DNA from: Naegleria gruberi
Lineage: Eukaryota
Assembly (NCBI GenBank): GCA_000004985.1
Contig: GG738883.1
Strand: one strand, 5' to 3'
DNA: 64,000 bases
Of the stretch, positions 15,667 through 54,578 are shown one piece after another; within the stretch, counting starts at the first letter, position 1, and each line of letters begins with the position of its first letter. The position numbers and the translations under genes were made by a program. The notes under the pieces were generated by a model. The model searched no databases. It was not told the origin of the DNA and worked only from the letters and a program-made list of their open reading frames with translations.

Positions 15667-16006
15667 CTCTAGATTTTTTTTTTTAATTTCAACAAATTTA
15701 AATTTCTTTAATATTTAAAATTATTTTAATATTTAATATTAATGGTTGTTGTATAGAACAGAGAATGTTGGACAAGGTCATGGATAAATGCAATTCTTAA
15801 ATCACCAAATTTAATACTGAATTACCATATTTATACAGTGATTGTCTTTGCATGGATTTGATTTGTCAGTCTCACCTAATAACCAAAGGCAATTACAAGA
15901 CATTAAAGTTGTTACAATTAAAAACATCATAAAAAAAGTATCTACAAGGCATCACAAGCCATACAATCATTTCGAATACTTTTCTAAAAGAATAATTTAC
16001 TTTCGG

Positions 16007-17677
16007 ATGGGAAATACACATCATCAGGGACTTGAAGAGGGTCATCATCACCGAAAATCACAACGTTCCTCTGATAATTCACCACTTTCCACTCATCAAA
16101 ATCCTTTCCATCATCGACACAGCACCAAAAGCAATCATTCGAATTATGAACAACAATTAGATACTGCCATAACACAATTAACCAATAATAATGGAACTCT
16201 GGATGAAAATAATCATCATCATTACCAACCTAATCATCAATTGGATGGTGAAATTCTTGTTGGTCTTCCAAATATAACTGCCTTTTCAGGAAAAGATGCA
16301 CTAGTGGTGGAAAATTCACTTGAAAAATTCAAAATCCTATTGTGTGGAAGTGGATCAAGTGGAAAAACCACATTTCTCAAAAGTATTGAATTGTACAAGA
16401 AGGGAGCATTTATGGAATCAGCTTACAAGAAGGGAATTATCTATTTTAATATTATTAGAGATTTGGGATTGATGTGTAAACAGTATTTGAGTGTGGCTAC
16501 AGAGTTTTTGAATTTCATTTCAGGTTTGAATGAGGAAAATTATGGAAAATCATTGAGTGATTTGAATGAAATGTTTCCTAGAGAATTGCCACGTGAAATT
16601 ACAGATTCGATGGATAGATTGATTAAGGTTGCGAGCTCAAAGAATTTTCTACATAGTTCAGCAAGTAGATCATCTTCAAAACAGTATAATCCTACATTTG
16701 ATACTTATTTTAATGAGCAAACATTTGAGGATATTGAATCATTGTGGAAATATAGACCTTTCAACTTATTTGCTCATTTTCACTTGACACATTCAAGTAT
16801 TCCAGAATTTTTGACACCTGTTTTAACTAAAATGGACACAATTCCAAACATTACGTTTGGAGAGAATGAATCCACTAATTATTCCAAGTTTATGCTCTCA
16901 TTGAGGAATAGTGATTTTGATGATTTAATTTACTTTTTAGATCGTAGACTCAATGAATTATATCCTCCTTATCAGTATGACCCCAATTGGGTTGATCTCT
17001 TACATAGAAGACAAAAAACAGTTGGATTTTATCATTTAAACTATGTGGAAGATGCCATTTCAGAGGAGGGCATGAGAGAAACGAGAAATTACATTTTTAT
17101 TGATACAGCTGGTCAAAGGTCAGAAAGAAAGAAGTGGTCAATCTGTTATCCAAACACATTTACACTCTTTTACTTTGTTTCATTGGCTGATATTAATTTA
17201 ACATTGTATGAATCGAATGTGGAGAATAGATTGTTGGATTCTTTGCATTTGTTTGAGCATGTTTGTCAGGAACCAGATCTCATTCAAACTCCAATTGTTC
17301 TCTTCTTTACAAAAACAGATATTCTCAAGAGGAAGATTAAAAATGGATTGAAACCTATTGAGCTATTTGAAAAGATTGAAAAGCTCTACTCACAACGATA
17401 TGAAGCAGCAACCATTGTTGACATGCCACCATCATCTGCAACTAATGATACTGAGAAGAATTCCGAACTTTCTCTCAATATTTCGTCTGGAAATCAAGCG
17501 AATCAAGTCGATGCTGAATTCAACCAATTCATTGAATATATTTCAGCCAAATTCAAGGAAAAACTGTTACCAACACAAACAATCACCATTTACACTCTCG
17601 ACTGCACTGAACCTACTCAATTCAAAACAACATTCAAGGAAATCATGCAAATGTTAAATAAAACTATCAAGGACTAA
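16007..17677 (+). CDS. Divergent heterotrimeric G-protein alpha subunit of about 556 aa.
   Basis: G1 is LLCGSGSSGKTT, G3 is FIDTAGQRSERKKW, G4 is FFTKTD (NKxD-like) and G5-like is TLDCTEP. A long His-rich N-terminal region precedes the GTPase core. Track ORF 15842 begins at a TTG; the first in-frame ATG is at 16007 (MGNTHHQ). Confidence 0.8.
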   Translation: MGNTHHQGLEEGHHHRKSQRSSDNSPLSTHQNPFHHRHSTKSNHSNYEQQLDTAITQLTNNNGTLDENNHHHYQPNHQLDGEILVGLPNITAFSGKDALVVENSLEKFKILLCGSGSSGKTTFLKSIELYKKGAFMESAYKKGIIYFNIIRDLGLMCKQYLSVATEFLNFISGLNEENYGKSLSDLNEMFPRELPREITDSMDRLIKVASSKNFLHSSASRSSSKQYNPTFDTYFNEQTFEDIESLWKYRPFNLFAHFHLTHSSIPEFLTPVLTKMDTIPNITFGENESTNYSKFMLSLRNSDFDDLIYFLDRRLNELYPPYQYDPNWVDLLHRRQKTVGFYHLNYVEDAISEEGMRETRNYIFIDTAGQRSERKKWSICYPNTFTLFYFVSLADINLTLYESNVENRLLDSLHLFEHVCQEPDLIQTPIVLFFTKTDILKRKIKNGLKPIELFEKIEKLYSQRYEAATIVDMPPSSATNDTEKNSELSLNISSGNQANQVDAEFNQFIEYISAKFKEKLLPTQTITIYTLDCTEPTQFKTTFKEIMQMLNKTIKD

Positions 17678-25435: not shown

Positions 25436-25499
25436 AGCAAATTGGAAGCGCGATGGGCTCATAACCCATAGGTCCTAGGATCGAAACCTAGATTTGCTA
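25436..25499 (+). pseudogene. Initiator tRNA-Met (CAU) copy with an 8-nt deletion that removes the 5' D-stem/loop. Probably a pseudogene.
   Basis: Apart from the loss of CGCAGCGG after position 9, it matches the intact copy at 37830..37901. The anticodon arm ATGGG-CTCATAA-CCCAT and the T-arm CTAGG-ATCGAAA-CCTAG are intact. Without the D-arm a cloverleaf cannot form. Confidence 0.7.
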
Positions 25500-25604
25500 A
25501 TCATTTTACAATTTTGGCATTGAAACAATCTATTAATAAATTTAGTGAACTAAGGCAAAAACAAACCAATATTAATTTAAAAGGAATTAATTTAAAAAGG
25601 AAAT

Positions 25605-25676
25605 GGGGACCAGTGGGAATCGAACCCACGGCCTCTCGCACCCAAAGCGAGAATCATACCACTAGACCATGGTCCC
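25605..25676 (-). tRNA. tRNA-Pro (UGG)
   Basis: The reverse complement is GGGACCATGGTCTAGTGGTATGATTCTCGCTTTGGGTGCGAGAGGCCGTGGGTTCGATTCCCACTGGTCCCC. It closely matches eukaryotic tRNA-Pro(TGG). The anticodon loop is TTTGGGT, the T-loop is TTCGATT and the acceptor stem has 7 bp. Confidence 0.9.
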
Positions 25677-37652: not shown

Positions 37653-37724
37653 GGGACCATGGTCTAGTGGTATGATTCTCGCTTTGGGTGCGAGAGGCCG
37701 TGGGTTCGATTCCCACTGGTCCCC
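37653..37724 (+). tRNA. tRNA-Pro (UGG)
   Basis: The sequence is GGGACCATGGTCTAGTGGTATGATTCTCGCTTTGGGTGCGAGAGGCCGTGGGTTCGATTCCCACTGGTCCCC. It is the same gene as the minus-strand copy at 25605..25676. Confidence 0.9.
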
Positions 37725-37829
37725 ATTTCCTTTTTAAATTAATCCCATTTAAATTAGTATTGGTTTGTTTTTGCCTTAGTGCACTAAATTTATTAATAGA
37801 CTGTTTCAATTCCAAAATTGTAAAATGAT

Positions 37830-37901
37830 TAGCAAATCTAGGTTTCGATCCTAGGACCTATGGGTTATGAGCCCATCGCGCTTCCGCTGCGCCAATTTGC
37901 T
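37830..37901 (-). tRNA. Initiator tRNA-Met (CAU), intact.
   Basis: The reverse complement is AGCAAATTGGCGCAGCGGAAGCGCGATGGGCTCATAACCCATAGGTCCTAGGATCGAAACCTAGATTTGCTA. Eukaryotic initiator hallmarks are present: A1:U72, three consecutive G:C pairs in the anticodon stem, and A54 and A60 in the T-loop (ATCGAAA). It is near-identical to human tRNAi-Met across the D-arm, anticodon loop and T-loop. Confidence 0.9.
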
Positions 37902-39438: not shown

Positions 39439-39927
39439 TTATTCTACGCTAATAGGACCAATATTAAGTAATGTTAATTGTTTCATTTCACTTATGTATT
39501 TGGATCCTTCTGCACCAATTTGATTTCTACCAATATTAAGTAATGTTAATTGTTTCATTTCACTTATGAATTTGGCTCCTTCATCACCAATTTGATTTCT
39601 ACCAATATAAAGTGATGTTAATTGTTTCATTTCACTTATGAATTTGGCTCCTTCATCACCAATTTGATTGCCATCAATATTAAGTGATGTTAATTGTTTC
39701 ATTTCACTTATGAATTTAACTGTATCTGGAGAGTTAAGCAACTTATTAGAAAACTTAATGTTTACAATACTATTCATGAATTGACTTTTCATTAACAATT
39801 CAATTCTATTTTCTGTAAATTGTTTTTTAAATTGAATAACAAGTTTTGAACGTTCCTTGATCACATTAAACCATTGTTTTGAAATTAAAGAACAATTATT
39901 CAAAATAAACCACGAATCATCAATCAT
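39439..39927 (-). CDS. RNI-type leucine-rich-repeat protein of at least 162 aa, built from tandem 24-aa LRR units. The N-terminus may be incomplete.
   Basis: Four near-identical units ISEMKQLTSL(N/Y)IG(R/G)NQIGDEGAKF are encoded by a 72-bp DNA tandem repeat. Confidence 0.6.
   Translation of the reverse strand: MIDDSWFILNNCSLISKQWFNVIKERSKLVIQFKKQFTENRIELLMKSQFMNSIVNIKFSNKLLNSPDTVKFISEMKQLTSLNIDGNQIGDEGAKFISEMKQLTSLYIGRNQIGDEGAKFISEMKQLTLLNIGRNQIGAEGSKYISEMKQLTLLNIGPISVE
39459..39720. repeat. 72-bp tandem repeat (about 3.6 units) encoding the LRR units of gene 39439..39927.
   Basis: The unit CAATATTAAGTAATGTTAATTGTTTCATTTCACTTATG(T/A)ATTTGG(A/C)TCCTTC(T/A)(G/T)CACCAATTTGATTTCTAC repeats at ~90% identity between units. 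Confidence 0.85.
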
Positions 39928-40932
39928 GCAAATAATTTCAAAACAAACATCATCCGAAAATATAATATTCTCTATTAATTAGCAATTCATTTCATTAATT
40001 ATTATTATTATGAAAACAACCCTTCGAGAAAATACCAACCTTCTACAGGTTTTACCTCCATCACGATGATAATAATGATAGCAGGAATATTGGTAGTTTT
40101 TTCTGATAGAATATCGCAAACAATTCTTAATGTTCCATCATGTTCGCACAAATTAAAAGAATCAACAAATCAATAAGAATGGGCTTGTTCTGTAAAGTAT
40201 TTTTTTCAAAGTCAATACAGTAATTAATATTTTATGACAGAGTAATAATATTAATTACTTACTGTGATAGATAATATCAATTACCAATATTTGCCAAATT
40301 TCCTTGGTCTAGCAATAAATGTGTGTGATTCTTCTTCTAATAACTGTTGAATAACATCAGTTTTATCAACATGCCGTTCTTGATAATAGCAGAAAAGTTG
40401 TTGTCATCTTGATGTCTTCATTAATTATTGTACTCTCAATTTTCTGTATTTTTCTAACAATTGTTCTTCTGGTTTGGATAGGGATGGTTCTGCTATTTCC
40501 TCTTCTTCATTATTCGCTCTCTTCATTTTTTTAACAATATTTATCACAGTTTATTTTGGTTCTGATTTGTGGAAGCTTAATACATAAACTAAGGGTGTTA
40601 TCATTATCACAATTCACAATTCAAAGTTGAAAAGTGATAGGGAAATTGTGGCGAAGGCCTTCGCTCAGAACCTACTTCTCTGATATTTGCTTAAGAGCAT
40701 TTGATGCATGTTGTCATAATTTGAATGACATTTGGCGTCCAATGTGTAAAAGCTAGTACAGCTACATTGAAGAAACAACAGAGGAAGCAGGTACATTAGC
40801 TCGAATTGTAATTGGAAATTGAGAATTGAAATTCCATTTGCTTGTGAATTTTCTGCATTACCAGATTCAAAGAAATTTAAAACAATATCCAAATCCTTTA
40901 TTATTCAACATTAAGATTTTAAAATATTGATT

Positions 40933-41051
40933 GGCTACGGCCATATCACGATTCATGCACCTCATCCCGTCCGATTTGAGAAGTTAAGCATCGTCGAGCC
41001 ACATCAGTACTGAGGTTGGAGACAACTTGGGAACCTGTGGTGCTGTAGTCT
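40933..41051 (+). rRNA. 5S ribosomal RNA
   Basis: GGCTACGGCCATATCACGATTCATGCACCTCATCCCGTCCGATTTGAGAAGTTAAGCATCGTCGAGCC...TGGGAACCTGTGGTGCTGTAGTC matches the eukaryotic 5S consensus. Shared elements are CCCGTCCGAT, GAAGTTAAGC, AGTACT, GGGAGAC/GGAGACA, TGGGAA and GGTGCTGTAG. The 5' and 3' ends pair to form helix I. A TTTT Pol III terminator follows immediately. Confidence 0.9.
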
Positions 41052-41259: not shown

Positions 41260-42324
41260 ATGCGACTATCAAATATCTTTCAAATTTTGCCTCACGATTT
41301 AATCAAAGAAATTCTCAGCCACATCAATTGTGTCGAACTAATATTCTCGCTCACACAAGTGTCTCGATATTGGAGAAGTGTTTGTCATGAATTTATGTGG
41401 CAACACTATCAAGAAACAAATTATTTAAGGCCTCCTCCTCCTCCGAAGAATCTAGATTCGTCATTTGAATTTCTCTACTCACCAGAAGGAAGAAAATTCA
41501 CCAAATATTTGCTCCGAAAACAAGTTTATGAATTTTCGAGTAAATTACAGAATAGTATTGAAAAAGGAAGTGATTCCTTCTCAAAAATGATTTTGTTGAA
41601 AGAGGAGTGGGTTGATGAAGAATTGAAAATTCTCAAGGGATACTTTAGACAATATTTTGATTTACAAGAATTGAAAACTGAAACGATTTCACGAGGATCG
41701 AATAGTTTTATTGGAAATACGTTTTCTTTTATTGGATCTTTCTTTTCAAGTAAATCAAAATCAACGAATAGCTTATCAAATTCAACAGTATCTCACAAAG
41801 ATGAAAACTATCTCACAAAGATACTTTTGGATGGTGAATCTGGAAGTGGAAAGACTTCACTACTCAATTGTGTCTTTTATAATTCACCTGTTGTTCCAAA
41901 TGCTTACGTTCCTTGCATGGGTGAAATGCCCATTAAAAATTATCAATTTGGAAACACAGCAAGAGTCAAAATTCAAATTTGGGATCTTCCAGGAAATACT
42001 CGTTTTAGAAGTATTTCTACATCCTATCATAGAGGAGCCACATTTTTTTTACTATTTGTTGATCCTTATTCAATTGATTACAATAGCTCACTAAAAGAAA
42101 AGCTGGAATATATGAAGAGTTATCTACCTGGAAAGGAAGTAATTTTCATTACAACAAAGAAAGATCGTACCAATGAGAAAAGATACTTTTCGAATGAACA
42201 AGCAGATCAGTTTGCTTTCGAAAATTTTGGTGGAATTCATTTAGATATTACCAATACTCAATTGGATGAACCAAAAACTATTGTATTATATTGTGCACTA
42301 CTCAAATATTTACTTTCTCCTTAA
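41260..42324 (+). CDS. F-box protein fused to a C-terminal Ras-superfamily (Rab-like) small GTPase domain, 354 aa.
   Basis: The F-box is LPHDLIKEILSHINCVELIFSLTQVSRYWRSV. The GTPase has G1 GESGSGKT, G3 WDLPGN and G4 TTKKD, with a Rab-like layout. The start context is AAAAAAAAAATG. Confidence 0.75.
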   Translation: MRLSNIFQILPHDLIKEILSHINCVELIFSLTQVSRYWRSVCHEFMWQHYQETNYLRPPPPPKNLDSSFEFLYSPEGRKFTKYLLRKQVYEFSSKLQNSIEKGSDSFSKMILLKEEWVDEELKILKGYFRQYFDLQELKTETISRGSNSFIGNTFSFIGSFFSSKSKSTNSLSNSTVSHKDENYLTKILLDGESGSGKTSLLNCVFYNSPVVPNAYVPCMGEMPIKNYQFGNTARVKIQIWDLPGNTRFRSISTSYHRGATFFLLFVDPYSIDYNSSLKEKLEYMKSYLPGKEVIFITTKKDRTNEKRYFSNEQADQFAFENFGGIHLDITNTQLDEPKTIVLYCALLKYLLSP

Positions 42325-42379: not shown

Positions 42380-43705
42380 ATGTCGCTAACTAAACTGGCA
42401 AATGATGAATGGTTTGAAATTGCTCAATATTTATCTCCGTGTGATCTTTACAGAGTTTCACAAATTAGTCAACAATTTTATAATGAATATTTCTCTAATC
42501 AACAAGATTCGTTTTCTTTCCGATGGTTTCCACAAATGATTTGTAAAAAAGTAATTGATCAGGTGGAGAGGAGTTTTTGCCTTCTGAGCGATCAAGAAAA
42601 TTCGCTTTATCAAAAAATTATAAAAGACGAAACCTTTATATCCAGAGCAGAATGGAAACAATTATTGAAAATTTATTTAAAATCAAGTTATTTAAAAGTC
42701 ATGATGTGGAATATTACAAGGGATGATGGCGATTTTCTAGTTTATTTTCCATCGAGATTAGTTAATCATGATTGTGAAATTCTTTCAAGAAAATTATTCT
42801 TGAAATCGAATAATGATGAATACAGAGATGAGGATGAAATGATCTTGATTCATGGATACAAACAGGGAACAGACAATTTAATAATATTTTCAAAAGAATT
42901 GGTTGATAAGACAAGACAAGTTAACGAAACAATTCACATTTCTCAAATCATTGATTTAAAACTAGCTCATTTAGATTCTTCACACAGTATTTTACGAAAG
43001 ATATTATTGAAGATGTGGGAAAACTCTCCTCACAAGAGGTTGTATCAGTCATTGGATATGATCGTAAAGCAGGAAATTACCTATCCTAATAAGAAATTAA
43101 CTTTTCAAGTTATGCAATTGAATAGAATGCAAAAGAAGATAGTTTTAGATTTTCCAGAAGTAGGACTCCACTCAGCACAAGTCAACCTTCAGGTTAGACC
43201 ATTCAAAATCAGCTATGTATTTTCAAATCAAAGTCTGTGGATCTCATTTAAAATCTTAATCAGAGAATTGATAATTGTTGCCATGATGCTCATTTACATT
43301 TGGTTTAGAACTAAATTATCTTGGAATGGAAATTCTTATTCATGGTTCGAATGTACTATTCGATCTATTCAGGCTCTTTATGTGAATTCTGATTTTTCCT
43401 TCCTTTCAGTGATACAAATGATATTCTACGCCATGGTTTATTTGTTCATTTTTATTTTCGGAGGAAAATATGAACGTGCAATCTCTACAATTAGTATGGG
43501 GTATTTTTTCATAGCTCAGGCACATCTTGGACTATTGGAGGAATCACAATCTAACATTGTACAAGTTGTGAATGCTTCGTTTGAGCTTATTCATATTACA
43601 CATTTGGCTAAATTGCTGGTACAAAACATACAGGGAGGGATAGTTAAAAGATGCAGGTTTTGGATCAAGTCTGTTTTGGATAAATTTTGGCATGCATCTG
43701 AATAG
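42380..43705 (+). CDS. F-box-like protein of 441 aa with a hydrophobic, probably transmembrane, C-terminal region.
   Basis: The N-terminus WFEIAQYLSPCDLYRVSQISQQF is F-box-like. C-terminal hydrophobic helices are IIVAMMLIYIWF and MIFYAMVYLFIFIFGG. Confidence 0.55.
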   Translation: MSLTKLANDEWFEIAQYLSPCDLYRVSQISQQFYNEYFSNQQDSFSFRWFPQMICKKVIDQVERSFCLLSDQENSLYQKIIKDETFISRAEWKQLLKIYLKSSYLKVMMWNITRDDGDFLVYFPSRLVNHDCEILSRKLFLKSNNDEYRDEDEMILIHGYKQGTDNLIIFSKELVDKTRQVNETIHISQIIDLKLAHLDSSHSILRKILLKMWENSPHKRLYQSLDMIVKQEITYPNKKLTFQVMQLNRMQKKIVLDFPEVGLHSAQVNLQVRPFKISYVFSNQSLWISFKILIRELIIVAMMLIYIWFRTKLSWNGNSYSWFECTIRSIQALYVNSDFSFLSVIQMIFYAMVYLFIFIFGGKYERAISTISMGYFFIAQAHLGLLEESQSNIVQVVNASFELIHITHLAKLLVQNIQGGIVKRCRFWIKSVLDKFWHASE

Positions 43706-48002: not shown

Positions 48003-49209
48003 ATGCAAGATGATGATTGCTGCGTCCTCAATCTCGATTTCTCCATTGCTAGTCAATTATTAAAAAATTCATTTAAACAATGCTACAAAAATTCAACAAT
48101 AATTATGGATATAGGAAGTTGTGAAGCAAAGATTGGATTTTCACAAAATCCTGCTGATCCGATAATATTTCCATCAGTATACGGCAATGCGCGATATAAA
48201 TTTTCATTGATGTCTATATTCAATGATGTTGAAGTGGGAGAAAGAGCTCTGCAAAGAAAAGGAGTCTTGTCTTTAAGGTATCCAATGATGGCTAATGGAA
48301 GAACAAGTGATTGGGTTGGAGTGCAAAGGATTTATGATCACTCGTTTGAATTATTGGAATTGGTGGATGTGGATGAGAGATTTATGGTTTTATTGAGCGA
48401 AAATAATGCAACTGGAAATCAATCAAATGTTGTGGAGGAAAGAAAGCAAAAGGCAGAGTATTTGTTTGAAAAAGAGGCCGTGATGAAGATTGGAATGATC
48501 AATCAGACGATAATGACACTTGTGTCTTATGGGTTATATACTGGAACAGTTCTACATTCAGGGAATATCCAATCTTTGGCCATGTGTATTGAAAATTGTA
48601 AATTGGTTTCAGAGATGGAATCTTGTGTTCATAATCAACTTTTGGAAATAGGAGGACATCAAATGACATTGGATTTAGAAGATTTATTTAGAAGAAATGG
48701 TATTACATTAGGACATCACACCAATACCATTTGTACTGAGGTTAAGGAAACTCTATGTAGGGTTAAAATTCCAACACGAACAGTTCAGGATAGAAAATTT
48801 GAGCTTCCAGATGGATCTGATCTGATGATCGAAGGGGAATGGTTGGAACAAATTACAGAAAAATTATTTCATTCAGGTTCATATTGTGTGGAATCATTGA
48901 TCACGAACGCCAAGGCCACACTTTTACAAGAATATTGTGTTGGGAGGTGGAAATTGTCTATTTCCAGGATTTAGGGAACGTTTGCAAATTGAGCTAGATG
49001 CTATAGTATCGTCCCAATATCGCAGCTGTTTGAATGTACTTCCATTTTTGGAAGGGAAGAAAACAGAATATAAGGGAGGTCGTATTCTTTCAGAATTGTC
49101 AACAGTTCAAAAAGGAGCAATGATATCCAAGTCGCAATTTGAAGAACTTGGTTCGTCTATTTTCCACAGATTCCAATCATTCGAAAGGCCAATTTGCGAA
49201 TTTTATTAG
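48003..49209 (+). CDS. Divergent actin-related protein with an apparent +1/-1 frameshift near 48898-48915 that separates the last ~90 codons.
   Basis: The N-terminus IIMDIGSCEAKIGFSQNPADPIIFPSVYG matches actin D-N-G-S-G...FPS. Further actin-like segments are GVLSLRYPMMANGRTSDW, GTVLHSGNIQS and FELPDGSDLMIEGEW. The segment ...SLITNA (frame A) must shift to RPHFYKNIVLGGGNCLFPGFRERLQIE... (frame B, matching actin [20 protein letters not shown]). A TGA precedes frame B at 48898 and frame A terminates at 48972-48974. No intron-sized GT..AG is available at the junction. Confidence 0.6.
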
Positions 49210-49365: not shown

Positions 49366-49436
49366 TCGGGTGTGGTATAGTGGTAGCATTCCAGACTGTC
49401 ACTCTGGCGACCCGGGTTCAATTCCCGGCACTCGAG
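49366..49436 (+). tRNA. tRNA-Asp (GUC)
   Basis: The sequence is TCGGGTGTGGTATAGTGGTAGCATTCCAGACTGTCACTCTGGCGACCCGGGTTCAATTCCCGGCACTCGAG. The anticodon loop is CTGTCAC, the T-loop is TTCAATT and the acceptor has 7 bp with one G-U pair. It resembles eukaryotic tRNA-Asp. Confidence 0.85.
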
Positions 49437-52172: not shown

Positions 52173-54578
52173 ATGTTAACAGACTTTGAAATCAATGATG
52201 AGAATAATCATCAGGACGATCAGGGCTATGATGAAATTATTGGAGGAGAAGATCATCATGTTCGTAATAGTAACGAAACAAAATTTGATAATTTACCGGA
52301 GGAAGTAATTGCAAATATTTGTTCATGTTTTATGAGAAATTCAACAACAAATTTAGCAGAAAGAAAAGGACAACAGGATTTTTCTGAAAATTCATTGTTT
52401 GAGTATGAAGATTTTCATACTGTCAATATTGATGATTTAATAGATATTTATCCATTATCGTTACTTAATAGAACTATTAGAAACAAAATTTTAAATAATA
52501 ATCATTTGTGGAATGAACAAATGATTGTTGATCTGAGTGAATTTTCAAAATCAACCAAATTATTTAAATATATGAATAAGATTAATGATTGGAATTATAG
52601 TTCATCTGATGATGATCTAATTGTAACAGTAGAAAGAGAAAGACTAAATATTGCTTTGAACTTTCTTTCATGTCTTGGTTTATCTGAATATATTAAAAAG
52701 TTAAAAGTTAGTTGCATATTGAAAGAAGTTGGGTTGAAGGAATCCATTTCATGGTCAAAACTCATTATTCACTCATTCCCTAATCTAACAGATATCATCT
52801 ATTACAGCCTCACTGATAGAAATGTTGTTAAGAGGTACGAATCCTTAGATTGTACTCAGGGAAAATGGCAAAATTTGAGCTCAATAACTGTTTATTTTGA
52901 TTTTACGTCATTATTATCTTTAATAGAAAACCACAAATCTACTATCAAGTCTATTGCTTTTTCTCCAAAAATGTCAGATAGGAAATCAACAGAAGAACTC
53001 TTAAAAAATCCCAAGATACTGGAAAATGTACAGAACATTATTATTAGTATGAAGTTTGATTCTGCAATGATGGAATCTAACAAAAATTATATGGAAAAGT
53101 TTGGTGCATTAAACATAGATTGTTCTGCTTTAGATATAGAGCGTTGGATTCCAAAACTGACACACCTTAAAAAGTTGGTGTTGGAAGGAATATACAATCC
53201 AAATTTTAAAATTGAAAACGTTAATTTCACAAATTTAACTGAGCTAGTGATATGTTTAGCTAATCAATCGGAATTAGCTTTCAACAATGTTCAAGCTCCA
53301 GAATTGCAAGAGCTTAGCATTTCTAATGCATCAATAGAAGCATCAACAGAGCCATTTAAAAATTTGCGATCATTGAAATTTCAAACTTGTAATTATGATC
53401 AAAATTTTTGGATCAAATCTCACCCTACACTCATGTACTTTAGCTTGTTTTTTCCAGAGTTTAAAGACACTATGTATAATCGCTCATTTTCATTGACTGA
53501 CAATCAAAGCTTACTTGTTATTTTACTTACCTCACTGGAATCTGTCTCTATAACTAACATCAACCCTTCTTGCAAATTATATATTGAAAAATGTCAATCA
53601 ATTCAGATTAATACTAGTAAGATATCTGAAATTTATATACAGAGCTATTCTACTGCTAGCGATATAAATATCAAAGGAGATCACTGTTCAAAACTTCATC
53701 TTCCAAAAGGTATTGAAAAATGTAAAATAGATTTGAATTCAATTAGTGAGATGAACTGTTATTATCAAGATAATTATTCTAAAATATTACCTCTTAGAGC
53801 ACATAACATTTCGTTAGAAACATTGCATATATCCTGCTTTAACATTCCTATTTTTATTAAGGAATTCTTAACATCCTTTAAATATATTGGAACTTGTAAA
53901 TGTGTTATCAGTCATGATCATACATACTCAAAAGTATACAAAAACATTAGTCCAAGCTCTAATCTTGATACTGACATGTCTAGTGTTGAGAAAATAATTA
54001 CTCATGGAGATATATCACTTCATACACATTTGACAAATAGCACCTCCTTACATACAATAATATCTGGAAGCAAATTAATCTGTTCTCCCAATACCACCTA
54101 CTTGAGCACTTCACTCACTCATTTGGAAACAAGTATTCAAAACTTTTCTTCACAATTTGACCTCCCTAATTTGAAAAATTTAATAATTTCTCATTCTGCA
54201 GATATAGAAATTGATCTTTCTCAATATCCACATCTAGAAGATTTTTCAATTTCTCATTCTAAGAATGTAAAAATTCGAAATACATCCAAGAGTATGGAGA
54301 AAATGAAATTTTTCCTATTGGAGGGTATTAATTCTCTTTCAATCAGTATTGATAATGTACAAGCCCCAAATATCCGAGAAGCCATCATTCACTCAATCAA
54401 AAGCATTGAACCTGGTACTGAGCCAATATTCACTTTATCTCATAGCCCAAAGATGCTCTTTTACTATGTTTCATTTGTGTGGAAACCAGCTTTTAAACCA
54501 AACCCACCTCGTACACATCAAGAAACTTTTGTAACGCCAATACCTAACGAAAACACCAGAAATTGTGAAATATTATAA
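52173..54578 (+). CDS. Large hypothetical protein of 801 aa with an F-box-like N-terminal motif and LRR-like repeats.
   Basis: The N-terminal motif is NLPEEVIANICSCF. The downstream region is leucine-rich and repetitive (NLTELVICLANQSELAFNNVQAPELQELSISNASIE...). The start context is AAAAATG. Confidence 0.55.
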   Translation: MLTDFEINDENNHQDDQGYDEIIGGEDHHVRNSNETKFDNLPEEVIANICSCFMRNSTTNLAERKGQQDFSENSLFEYEDFHTVNIDDLIDIYPLSLLNRTIRNKILNNNHLWNEQMIVDLSEFSKSTKLFKYMNKINDWNYSSSDDDLIVTVERERLNIALNFLSCLGLSEYIKKLKVSCILKEVGLKESISWSKLIIHSFPNLTDIIYYSLTDRNVVKRYESLDCTQGKWQNLSSITVYFDFTSLLSLIENHKSTIKSIAFSPKMSDRKSTEELLKNPKILENVQNIIISMKFDSAMMESNKNYMEKFGALNIDCSALDIERWIPKLTHLKKLVLEGIYNPNFKIENVNFTNLTELVICLANQSELAFNNVQAPELQELSISNASIEASTEPFKNLRSLKFQTCNYDQNFWIKSHPTLMYFSLFFPEFKDTMYNRSFSLTDNQSLLVILLTSLESVSITNINPSCKLYIEKCQSIQINTSKISEIYIQSYSTASDINIKGDHCSKLHLPKGIEKCKIDLNSISEMNCYYQDNYSKILPLRAHNISLETLHISCFNIPIFIKEFLTSFKYIGTCKCVISHDHTYSKVYKNISPSSNLDTDMSSVEKIITHGDISLHTHLTNSTSLHTIISGSKLICSPNTTYLSTSLTHLETSIQNFSSQFDLPNLKNLIISHSADIEIDLSQYPHLEDFSISHSKNVKIRNTSKSMEKMKFFLLEGINSLSISIDNVQAPNIREAIIHSIKSIEPGTEPIFTLSHSPKMLFYYVSFVWKPAFKPNPPRTHQETFVTPIPNENTRNCEIL

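What the first reader, a model, noticed from the sequence alone, without database searches (positions are those of the whole stretch)
41260..42324. F-box fused to a Rab-like small GTPase, within a local cluster of F-box/LRR genes
An N-terminal F-box precedes a complete G1-G4 GTPase core (GESGSGKT, WDLPGN, TKKD). An F-box-GTPase fusion would tether a small GTPase module to an SCF ubiquitin ligase, which is an uncommon domain combination. It sits next to a second F-box gene (42380-43705) and an LRR gene (39439-39927). A further F-box/LRR-like gene lies at 52173-54578. This suggests a locally expanded substrate-adaptor family.
Basis: partly seen in the sequence, partly recalled or inferred. Interest (0 to 1): 0.55.

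Follow-up and report, generated by a model that had tools for sequence, protein, structure and literature searches.

The report
Known Naegleria F-box–Rab-like GTPase gene
The gene is a real fusion of an F-box (a ubiquitin-ligase docking motif) and a divergent Rab-like GTPase in the amoeba Naegleria gruberi, but this exact gene and its family were already published in 2021, so it is not a discovery.

Summary
The window is Naegleria gruberi nuclear DNA. ORF 41260-42324 (+) encodes 354 aa in four parts:
- F-box, aa ~5-52. It passes Pfam's cut-offs, and a family profile matches only F-box proteins in the PDB.
- Family-specific helical linker, aa ~66-131.
- Disordered Ser-rich stretch, aa ~137-179.
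- Rab-like G domain, aa 183-354. All best PDB matches by sequence, and nearly all by fold, are Rabs.

The G domain is atypical. It keeps the P-loop, DxxG and TKKD. The switch-I Thr is Cys, the catalytic Gln is Asn, the G5 motif is replaced and there is no prenylation cysteine.

The NCBI model XP_002674580.1 starts at Met110 and lacks the F-box. Herman et al. 2021 (BMC Biol 19:142, Table S8) list exactly this 354-aa corrected sequence as "Rab" with an extra F-box domain. They describe Naegleria-specific F-box–Rab-like subgroups and propose GTPase-dependent ubiquitination.

I found about 16 related clusters. All the named ones are from N. gruberi, N. fowleri or N. lovaniensis.

The "local F-box/LRR cluster" is not supported. 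One neighbour has only a sub-threshold F-box, one is a plain LRR gene, and one has no detectable domain. None is a paralog.

Verdict: real, already known, function untested.

The parts
41260..42324 (+). Complete single-exon coding sequence, 354 aa plus stop, of the F-box–Rab-like GTPase. It is the corrected form of XP_002674580.1.
   Evidence: ORF list. 100% identity to P0001 / XP_002674580.1 over aa 110-354. The identical 354-aa sequence appears in Herman et al. 2021, Table S8. Full-length alignment to paralog P0002.
41272..41415 (+). F-box, aa ~5-52: IFQILPHDLIKEIL..VELIFSLTQVSRYWRSVC.
   Evidence: PF00646 26.0 bits and PF12937 25.2 bits, both above cut-off. The family profile hits only F-box proteins in the PDB, with FBXL17 best at E = 1e-4. 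P11, V34 and W38 are invariant in 13 members. Predicted helices at 4-9, 12-19, 24-29 and 36-53.
41455..41652 (+). Family-specific conserved helical linker, aa ~66-131, with motifs GRKFTKYLLRKQVYE and WVDEELKILKGYF.
   Evidence: Conserved blocks in alignment A2. The linker HMM hits only family members among 164 retrieved proteins and only this gene in the window. Predicted helices at 66-72, 75-103 and 116-131, with pLDDT up to about 90. No PDB sequence match beyond the F-box.
41587..41589 (+). Met110, the start codon used by the truncated public gene model XP_002674580.1. That model therefore lacks the F-box.
   Evidence: P0001 is 245 aa and begins MILLKEEW.
41668..41796 (+). Low-complexity Ser/Asn-rich, predicted disordered spacer, aa ~137-179. 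It contains the conserved FSFIGSFFSS motif.
   Evidence: pLDDT below 50 over residues 137-179. Length varies among family members.
41806..42321 (+). Rab-like G domain, aa 183-354, ending directly after helix alpha-5 with no hypervariable tail and no prenylation cysteines.
   Evidence: Roc and Ras Pfam hits. All 60 PDB sequence hits shown are Rabs, with Rab3A best at E = 5.4e-15. Foldseek top hits are nearly all Rabs, TM-score on target 0.68-0.83. The C-terminus reads LLKYLLSP.
41833..41856 (+). G1 / P-loop, GESGSGKT.
   Evidence: Sequence. GK[ST] is kept in 11 of 13 family members.
41914..41916 (+). Cys219 at the position of the switch-I (G2) threonine.
   Evidence: HMMER alignment to Rab3A. 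The family column reads T x7, S x3, C (this gene), N and A.
41980..41997 (+). G3 / switch II, WDLPGN. DxxG is kept and the catalytic Gln is replaced by Asn246.
   Evidence: Sequence. No family member has Gln at this position; most have Pro, as in WDQCGPERF.
42154..42165 (+). G4, TKKD (the guanine-specificity motif [NT]KxD).
   Evidence: Sequence. D302 is invariant in 13 members.

Best explanation
Shown. This is a Naegleria gruberi gene for a four-part protein: an F-box, a family-specific helical linker, a disordered spacer and a divergent Rab-like G domain. It belongs to a multigene family found so far only in Naegleria species and a few unnamed environmental sequences. The published re-annotation of Naegleria Ras-superfamily genes already lists it as Rab + F-box.

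Inferred mechanism. The F-box docks the protein onto Skp1, and through Skp1 onto a Cul1-Rbx1 (SCF) ubiquitin ligase. The Rab-like domain sits where other F-box proteins carry their WD40, LRR or Kelch substrate-binding domain. It would therefore act as the partner- or substrate-recognition module, binding targets through its switch surfaces in a way that depends on the bound nucleotide. This is 'GTPase-dependent ubiquitination'.

The domain keeps the P-loop, DxxG and [NT]KxD, so it probably still binds guanine nucleotide. The whole family lacks the catalytic Gln, and this copy also lacks the switch-I Thr. It is therefore probably a very slow GTPase that stays mostly in one nucleotide state, rather than a fast-cycling switch. 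It has no prenylation site and is probably cytosolic, not membrane-anchored like true Rabs.
For: Published listing of exactly this sequence as Rab + F-box, and the 'GTPase-dependent ubiquitination' proposal, come from PMC8296547 Additional files 4 and 10.

Family distribution. Hits matching over their full length, or carrying the same N-terminal module, in the 1.84-billion-protein library are N. gruberi, N. fowleri, N. lovaniensis or unnamed metagenome proteins.

The F-box is under selection. It is conserved in all 13 aligned members, which are only 24-56% identical overall, and it is independently above Pfam cut-off in 7 of 9 relatives.

Nucleotide-binding motifs are retained and the catalytic Gln is absent family-wide.

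Domain order matches canonical F-box proteins, with the F-box N-terminal and the recognition domain C-terminal. This point rests on established knowledge of SCF adaptors.
Against: No experiment bears on Skp1 binding, nucleotide binding or substrates. The only paper on the family says no specific functional prediction is possible.

This copy's Cys219 and Asn246 and its degenerate switch I (MGEMP instead of IGVDF) may mean that the nucleotide switch no longer works.

Several family members have lost DxxG altogether (P0021, P0046, P0047). Nucleotide dependence is therefore not universal in the family.

The published account notes birth-and-death evolution with pseudogenes in these clades, although this gene is not flagged as a pseudogene.
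Confidence: 0.45

Rival explanations
1. The F-box makes the GTPase itself the regulated object. It brings the protein to SCF so that it is rapidly turned over by self-ubiquitination. The Rab-like domain meanwhile signals to its own effectors independently of ubiquitination of third parties.
For: This role was suggested for the F-box of the trypanosome FYVE–F-box–GTPase protein TbFRP, which is rapidly processed and whose level depends on cell density (PMC3593210). F-box proteins are commonly self-ubiquitinated (general knowledge).
Against: It does not explain why the F-box has been fused again and again to different GTPase families in Naegleria (Rab, Rho, Ran, G-alpha). It does not explain why a conserved 70-residue helical linker is kept between the two domains.
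Confidence: 0.2
2. A nucleotide-independent pseudo-GTPase scaffold, or a paralog decaying in a birth-and-death family. The G domain is only a structural binding module, or is losing function, and no GTP switch operates.
For: Cys replaces the switch-I Thr, Asn replaces the catalytic Gln, and the RabF1 and G5 motifs are degenerate. The G domain of this copy is slightly more diverged from outgroup members (38-41% identity) than those of its closest paralogs (43-49%). Other family members have lost DxxG. The published account reports pseudogenisation in these clades.
Against: The ORF is intact over 354 codons. The P-loop, DxxG and TKKD are intact. The gene is not flagged as a pseudogene in Table S8. 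The whole length is 51-57% identical to paralog P0002, depending on the method, with long invariant blocks.
Confidence: 0.2
3. A Skp1-dependent but SCF-independent trafficking factor, analogous to yeast Rcy1. The F-box only recruits Skp1 as a partner and no ubiquitin ligase is assembled.
For: The G domain is Rab-like, so a membrane-traffic role is conceivable. A precedent exists for non-SCF Skp1–F-box complexes in recycling (own knowledge of Rcy1, not checked here).
Against: There is no prenylation motif or other membrane-targeting element. There is no sequence similarity to Rcy1-type domains.
Confidence: 0.1
4. Annotation artefact. The F-box and the GTPase are two separate genes, or the F-box resemblance is chance and the true product is the 245-aa public model.
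For: The public NCBI/JGI model starts at Met110.
Against: No stop codon interrupts 41260-42324. The region upstream of Met110 is conserved in every paralog and ortholog, including models annotated full-length in N. gruberi, N. fowleri and N. lovaniensis. The F-box is supported by Pfam and by the profile search of the PDB. The expert re-annotation extended the model.
Confidence: 0.03

Closest known systems
Naegleria-specific F-box–Rab-like GTPase subgroups (Herman et al. 2021, BMC Biol 19:142, Additional files 4 and 10)
   Same: This gene is a listed member. The identical 354-aa sequence is entered as 'Rab', corrected model XP_002674580.1*, additional domain F-box. It shares the F-box, the linker motifs, the WDxxG[PN] switch II, the ITNT motif and the LLKYLL C-terminus with its paralogs.
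   Different: Nothing at the family level. This copy belongs to a subgroup without the CaaX prenylation motif that one of the three subgroups carries. It is the only aligned member with Cys at the switch-I Thr position.
TbFRP / FRP (FYVE–F-box–Ras-like GTPase of Euglenozoa; PMC3593210)
   Same: A central or N-terminal F-box is followed by a C-terminal Rab-related GTPase domain. It occurs in the sister lineage of Heterolobosea within Discoba. Its F-box also has no known function.
   Different: FRP has an N-terminal PI3P-binding FYVE domain, and this protein has none. The FRP authors found no N. gruberi ortholog. No FYVE-bearing protein appears among the 150 best hits of the family profile. Common origin was not demonstrated and not directly tested.
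Rab40 (Rab GTPase with C-terminal SOCS box that recruits ElonginB/C–Cullin5). From own knowledge, not checked here.
   Same: The same logic applies: a Rab-type G domain is hard-wired to a cullin-RING ligase docking motif, so that the GTPase acts as the substrate receptor.
   Different: The docking motif differs (SOCS box with Cul5, versus F-box with Skp1/Cul1). The order is reversed, with the motif C-terminal in Rab40. Rab40 is prenylated and keeps canonical catalytic residues. There is no homology outside the G domain (no SOCS hit).
RhoBTB (Rho GTPase fused to BTB domains that bind Cullin3). Named as present in Naegleria.
   Same: An atypical, probably GTPase-deficient small G domain is fused to a cullin-adaptor module.
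   Different: It uses BTB with Cul3 rather than F-box with Cul1. It is a Rho-family rather than Rab-family G domain. It is a much larger protein.

Membership tests
F-box proteins (Pfam PF00646 / PF12937) | A ~40-50 aa motif scoring above the curated Pfam cut-off. | tested here: met
   PF00646 26.0 bits (cut-off 20.5) and PF12937 25.2 bits (cut-off 24.3), at aa 8-49. Seven of nine relatives also pass.
F-box proteins (Pfam PF00646 / PF12937) | Similarity to F-boxes of structurally solved Skp1-bound proteins, and a helical fold. | tested here: met
   The family N-terminal profile hits 17 PDB sequences, all F-box proteins (FBXL17, FBXO6, FBH1, FBXO44, FBXW7, Skp2 and others), at profile positions 6-57. 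The AlphaFold model shows four short helices over aa 4-53.
F-box proteins (Pfam PF00646 / PF12937) | Physical binding to Skp1. | not testable with these tools
   Needs pull-down, yeast two-hybrid or a co-folding prediction with N. gruberi Skp1.
Rab family of small GTPases | Ras-superfamily G-domain fold with G1 (GxxxxGK[ST]), G3 (DxxG) and G4 ([NT]KxD). | tested here: met
   GESGSGKT, WDLPG and TKKD are present. Ras and Roc Pfam hits. Foldseek TM-score on target 0.68-0.83.
Rab family of small GTPases | Closest relatives among small GTPases are Rabs, and the Rab-family (RabF) motifs are present. | tested here: inconclusive
   All 60 PDB sequence hits shown are Rabs. KIQIWD, RFRSIS and YHRGA resemble RabF2-F4. 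RabF1 (IGVDF) is MGEMP here and RabF5 is weak, by my reading. The Pfam Ras score is only 46 bits. No phylogeny was run here; the published one places these genes as divergent Rab-like clades.
Rab family of small GTPases | C-terminal prenylatable cysteine motif (CC, CXC or CaaX) after a hypervariable tail. | tested here: not met
   The protein ends ...YCALLKYLLSP directly after the last helix, with no terminal Cys motif.
Rab family of small GTPases | Catalytic Gln after DxxG and switch-I Thr. | tested here: not met
   Asn246 and Cys219. Gln is absent in all 13 family members.
Naegleria F-box–Rab-like family (Herman et al. 2021) | Conserved N-terminal extension (F-box plus linker) upstream of a divergent Rab-like domain, and presence in the published gene list. 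| tested here: met
   Alignment A2. N-terminal HMMs are specific to the family. The exact sequence is in Table S8.
FRP (Euglenozoan FYVE–F-box–GTPase) | N-terminal FYVE domain. | tested here: not met
   No FYVE hit in Pfam at E <= 1. The protein starts with the F-box at residue 5.
FRP (Euglenozoan FYVE–F-box–GTPase) | Orthology of the F-box–GTPase portion to Tb927.7.3790. | not tested
Indirect points: the FRP authors found no N. gruberi ortholog, and no FYVE motif occurs in the top 150 profile hits.
Roco proteins (Roc-COR) | A COR domain immediately after the Roc GTPase domain. | tested here: not met
   The protein ends with the G domain and has no COR hit. The Roc hit is generic small-GTPase similarity. 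The published survey says Naegleria lacks Roco proteins.

The most novel reading that the evidence does not exclude
The Rab-like domain is a true nucleotide-gated degron receptor. SCF would then ubiquitinate a target only when the receptor is GTP-bound or only when it is GDP-bound. That would be the first F-box protein whose substrate-recognition domain is a small GTPase, and one representative of a Naegleria-wide strategy also seen with Rho, Ran and G-alpha. This idea was already voiced as a possibility in the 2021 supplement, so only an experimental demonstration would be new. A second, less likely reading is shared ancestry with euglenozoan FRP, which would date F-box–GTPase fusions to the common ancestor of Discoba.
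Probability: 0.3. Interest if true: 0.6.

Novelty: already known. Interest (0 to 1): 0.25.

Why it matters
If the inferred mechanism is right, Naegleria couples small-GTPase switching directly to SCF ubiquitin ligases. This parallels animal Rab40–Cul5 and RhoBTB–Cul3, but it arose independently and has expanded greatly. That is of interest for the evolution of GTPase and ubiquitin signalling and for the cell biology of a genus that includes a lethal pathogen.

For this scan the practical value is small. The architecture, the corrected gene model and the hypothesis are already in the literature. The one useful reminder is that the public RefSeq and UniProt entry (XP_002674580.1 / D2VN08) is still the truncated, F-box-less model.

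Tried and rejected
- The word-indexed homolog search found only 3 and then 6 hits and missed most paralogs. The exhaustive HMMER search was needed.
- The look-up of the paralog P0002's genomic locus returned nothing. I therefore could not compute dN/dS between paralogs.
- Roco membership, suggested by the top Pfam hit 'Roc', was rejected. There is no COR domain and all closest structures are Rabs.
- Local tandem expansion was rejected. BLASTP between the adjacent genes gives E = 0.21. The family-specific F-box and linker HMMs hit only this gene in a six-frame scan of the window.
- The gene at 52173-54578 as an F-box/LRR protein is not supported. It has no Pfam hit, even on its N-terminal fragment, and no PDB hit. 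The only sign is a 10-bit match of LPEEVIANICSCF to the family F-box HMM.
- An F-box upstream of the LRR ORF was sought. The stop-to-stop extension (39442-39978, - strand) shows an F-box-like tail by eye but no Pfam F-box.
- A link to euglenozoan FRP could not be tested directly because no TbFRP sequence was available. No FYVE-bearing protein occurs among the top 150 hits.
- A nested F-box in the window's G-alpha gene (15842-17677) was looked for, because the 2021 paper reports such cases. None was found at E <= 0.01.

Full report
**What is there**

ORF listing shows one uninterrupted reading frame of 354 codons at 41260-42324 on the + strand. The window is AT-rich, about 33% GC. Its genes include a TOR-like kinase (my reading of the translation, not scanned), a G-alpha subunit and dispersed tRNA and 5S rRNA genes. 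The best database match to the ORF is 100% identical to 'rab family small GTPase [Naegleria gruberi]', XP_002674580.1 / EFC41836.1 / D2VN08. The window is therefore N. gruberi nuclear DNA. That public model is only 245 aa. It begins at Met110 of the ORF and lacks the N-terminal 109 residues.

**Checking the observation**

Pfam finds an F-box at aa 9-43 (PF00646, 26.0 bits, cut-off 20.5) and an F-box-like domain at aa 8-49 (PF12937, 25.2 bits, cut-off 24.3). It finds a small-GTPase domain at aa 187-321 (Roc 48.3 bits, Ras 46.4 bits).

The F-box assignment does not rest on one marginal score:
- A second N. gruberi protein, P0002 (XP_002671413.1, 388 aa), aligns from residue 1 to the C-terminus. 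Identity is 57% in the MAFFT alignment (51% by BLASTP), and the F-box contains long invariant blocks.
- In a 13-member alignment, P11, V34 and W38 of the F-box are invariant.
- Seven of nine relatives pass a Pfam F-box cut-off on their own.
- A profile of the N-terminal halves matches 17 PDB sequences. All are F-box proteins (FBXL17, FBXO6, FBH1, FBXO44, FBXW7, Skp2, KDM2B, FBXO2, FBXO42, GID2), and all match at the F-box position.

The G domain is Rab-like. All 60 PDB sequence hits shown are Rabs, with Rab3A best at E = 5.4e-15. An AlphaFold model (mean pLDDT 73.6, pTM 0.77) superposes on Rab structures with TM-scores on the target of 0.68-0.83.

The core is not 'complete', however:
- Aligned to Rab3A, the switch-I Thr is Cys219.
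- The residue after DxxG is Asn246 instead of the catalytic Gln.
- The G5 SAK motif is replaced by ITNT.
- The protein ends at ...LLKYLLSP with no prenylatable cysteines.

**Anatomy**

| Region | Residues | Evidence |
|---|---|---|
| F-box helices | 4-53 | |
| Helical linker with motifs GRKFTKYLLRKQVYE and WVDEELKILKGYF, conserved across the family, pLDDT up to about 90 | 66-131 | |
| Ser/Asn-rich spacer, variable length, predicted disordered | 137-179 | |
| G domain | 183-354 | |

The linker has no sequence relative in the PDB. It is specific to this family.

**Relatives**

An exhaustive HMMER search of 1.84 billion representative proteins, using a profile of the two N. gruberi sequences, returned a set of hits that match over their full length or carry the same N-terminal module. 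Those that carry names are:
- N. gruberi: XP_002677004.1, XP_002676638.1, XP_002675157.1, XP_002680716.1, and a 'predicted protein' (P0046).
- N. fowleri: XP_044563075.1.
- N. lovaniensis: XP_044550302.1 and XP_044544311.1.

The rest are unnamed metagenome proteins. Every other high-scoring hit that I retrieved and read was an ordinary Rab or a tandem multi-Rab protein. None of the remaining hits carries the N-terminal module or a FYVE motif.

Family-wide features:
- The P-loop (11 of 13 members) and [NT]KxD (11 of 13) are kept.
- The switch-I Thr is present in 7 of 13.
- No member has the catalytic Gln; most have Pro, as in WDQCGPERF.
- Three or four members have lost DxxG.

This gene's G domain is slightly more diverged from outgroup members than those of its closest paralogs, at 38-41% identity against 43-49%.

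**Already published**

A full-text search led to Herman et al. 2021, BMC Biol 19:142 (PMC8296547). Its Additional file 10 (Table S8, N. gruberi sheet) contains exactly the 354-aa sequence MRLSNIFQ...YLLSP. The entry reads annotation 'Rab', ID 'XP_002674580.1*' (manually corrected model), additional domain 'F-box'. It is not flagged as a pseudogene, and no ortholog outside Heterolobosea is recorded. The paralogs I found are in the same table.

[quoted passage not shown] Each has a conserved N-terminal extension identifiable as an F-box. One subgroup carries a CaaX motif. The authors report signs of birth-and-death evolution. [quoted passage not shown] They also state that no specific function can be predicted. 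No later paper on the topic turned up. The finding is therefore correct but already known, down to the corrected gene model.

**The 'local cluster' claim**

- The adjacent gene 42380-43705 has an F-box-like N-terminus below threshold, at 13.9 bits on the whole protein and 18.7 bits on the fragment, against a cut-off of 20.5. It has no significant similarity to the target gene.
- The gene at 39439-39927 (-) is a small LRR_6 protein without a detectable F-box.
- The gene at 52173-54578 has no Pfam or PDB match at all.
- HMMs built from this family's F-box and linker hit only the target gene in a six-frame scan of the window.

There is no local expansion. The real expansion is spread over other scaffolds.

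**How it most likely works (inference)**

The layout is that of a canonical SCF adaptor, with the F-box at the N-terminus and a recognition domain at the C-terminus. The most economical model is this. The F-box binds Skp1 within Skp1-Cul1-Rbx1. The Rab-like domain recruits the target through its switch surfaces, depending on the bound nucleotide.

Retention of G1, G3 and G4 argues for nucleotide binding. Family-wide loss of the catalytic Gln argues for very slow hydrolysis. This copy's Cys219 weakens the case for a working switch in this particular paralog. The lack of a lipid anchor argues for a soluble protein.

Rival explanations are:
- SCF-mediated self-turnover of a signalling GTPase, as suggested for TbFRP.
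- A nucleotide-independent pseudo-GTPase scaffold, or a decaying paralog.
- A Skp1-only, non-SCF role like yeast Rcy1 (own knowledge).
- An annotation artefact, which the conservation data essentially exclude.

**Comparison with known systems**

It is a member of the published Naegleria F-box–Rab-like family. It resembles euglenozoan FRP (FYVE–F-box–GTPase) in domain order. It lacks the FYVE domain, and the FRP authors found no Naegleria ortholog, so homology remains untested. It works like Rab40 (SOCS box with Cul5) and RhoBTB (BTB with Cul3) in principle, without being related to them outside the G domain. It fails two defining Rab features, prenylation and the catalytic Gln, so 'Rab-like' is the right label.

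**Verdict**

The gene is real and correctly read by the first stage in its main point. The 'complete core' is overstated and the 'local cluster' is wrong. The feature is already described in the literature and functionally uncharacterised.

Noticed in passing
window 40933-41051 (+): A complete 5S rRNA gene (Rfam RF00001, 100 bits) lies 209 bp upstream of the F-box–Rab start codon. It is a dispersed 5S copy between protein-coding genes.
   Followed up: no
window 41587 (Met110 of the ORF): The public RefSeq/UniProt model XP_002674580.1 / D2VN08 is truncated to 245 aa and lacks the F-box. The correction exists only in a paper's supplementary table.
   Followed up: yes
window 42380-43705 (+): The neighbouring 441-aa protein has a borderline N-terminal F-box (18.7 bits on the fragment, cut-off 20.5). 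By eye, its C-terminal third is hydrophobic and looks like transmembrane segments. Its only PDB hit is a weak match to a membrane subunit. An F-box fused to a membrane region would be unusual if real.
   Followed up: partly
window 52173-54578 (+): This 801-aa ORF has no Pfam and no PDB sequence match. Its only signal is a 10-bit match of LPEEVIANICSCF to the family F-box HMM. By eye, the repetitive Leu/Ile-rich C-terminal part may be a very divergent LRR-like solenoid.
   Followed up: partly
window 39439-39978 (-): A small LRR_6 protein has near-identical 24-residue repeats (GDEGAKFISEMKQLTSL). The in-frame sequence just upstream of its first Met (FSDDVCFEIIC...SLISKQWFNVI) looks like the remnant of an F-box. 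No ATG precedes it, so there may be an upstream exon, or the gene may be truncated.
   Followed up: partly
window 15842-17677 (+): A 611-aa G-alpha subunit (PF00503, 187 bits) has a ~160-aa N-terminal extension. About 130 extra residues lie within the matched region. No nested F-box was detected at E <= 0.01, unlike some Naegleria G-alpha genes reported in the 2021 paper.
   Followed up: partly
window 48003-48974 and 48937-49209 (+): Two overlapping ORFs in different frames together look, by eye, like one actin-related protein. This suggests a short intron or a frameshift between them. No domain search was run on them.
   Followed up: no
window 25436-25676, 37653-37901 and 49366-49436: There are five tRNA genes. 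Two pairs sit on opposite strands: the 25436/25605 pair convergent, the 37653/37830 pair also convergent, each pair about 100 bp apart.
   Followed up: no
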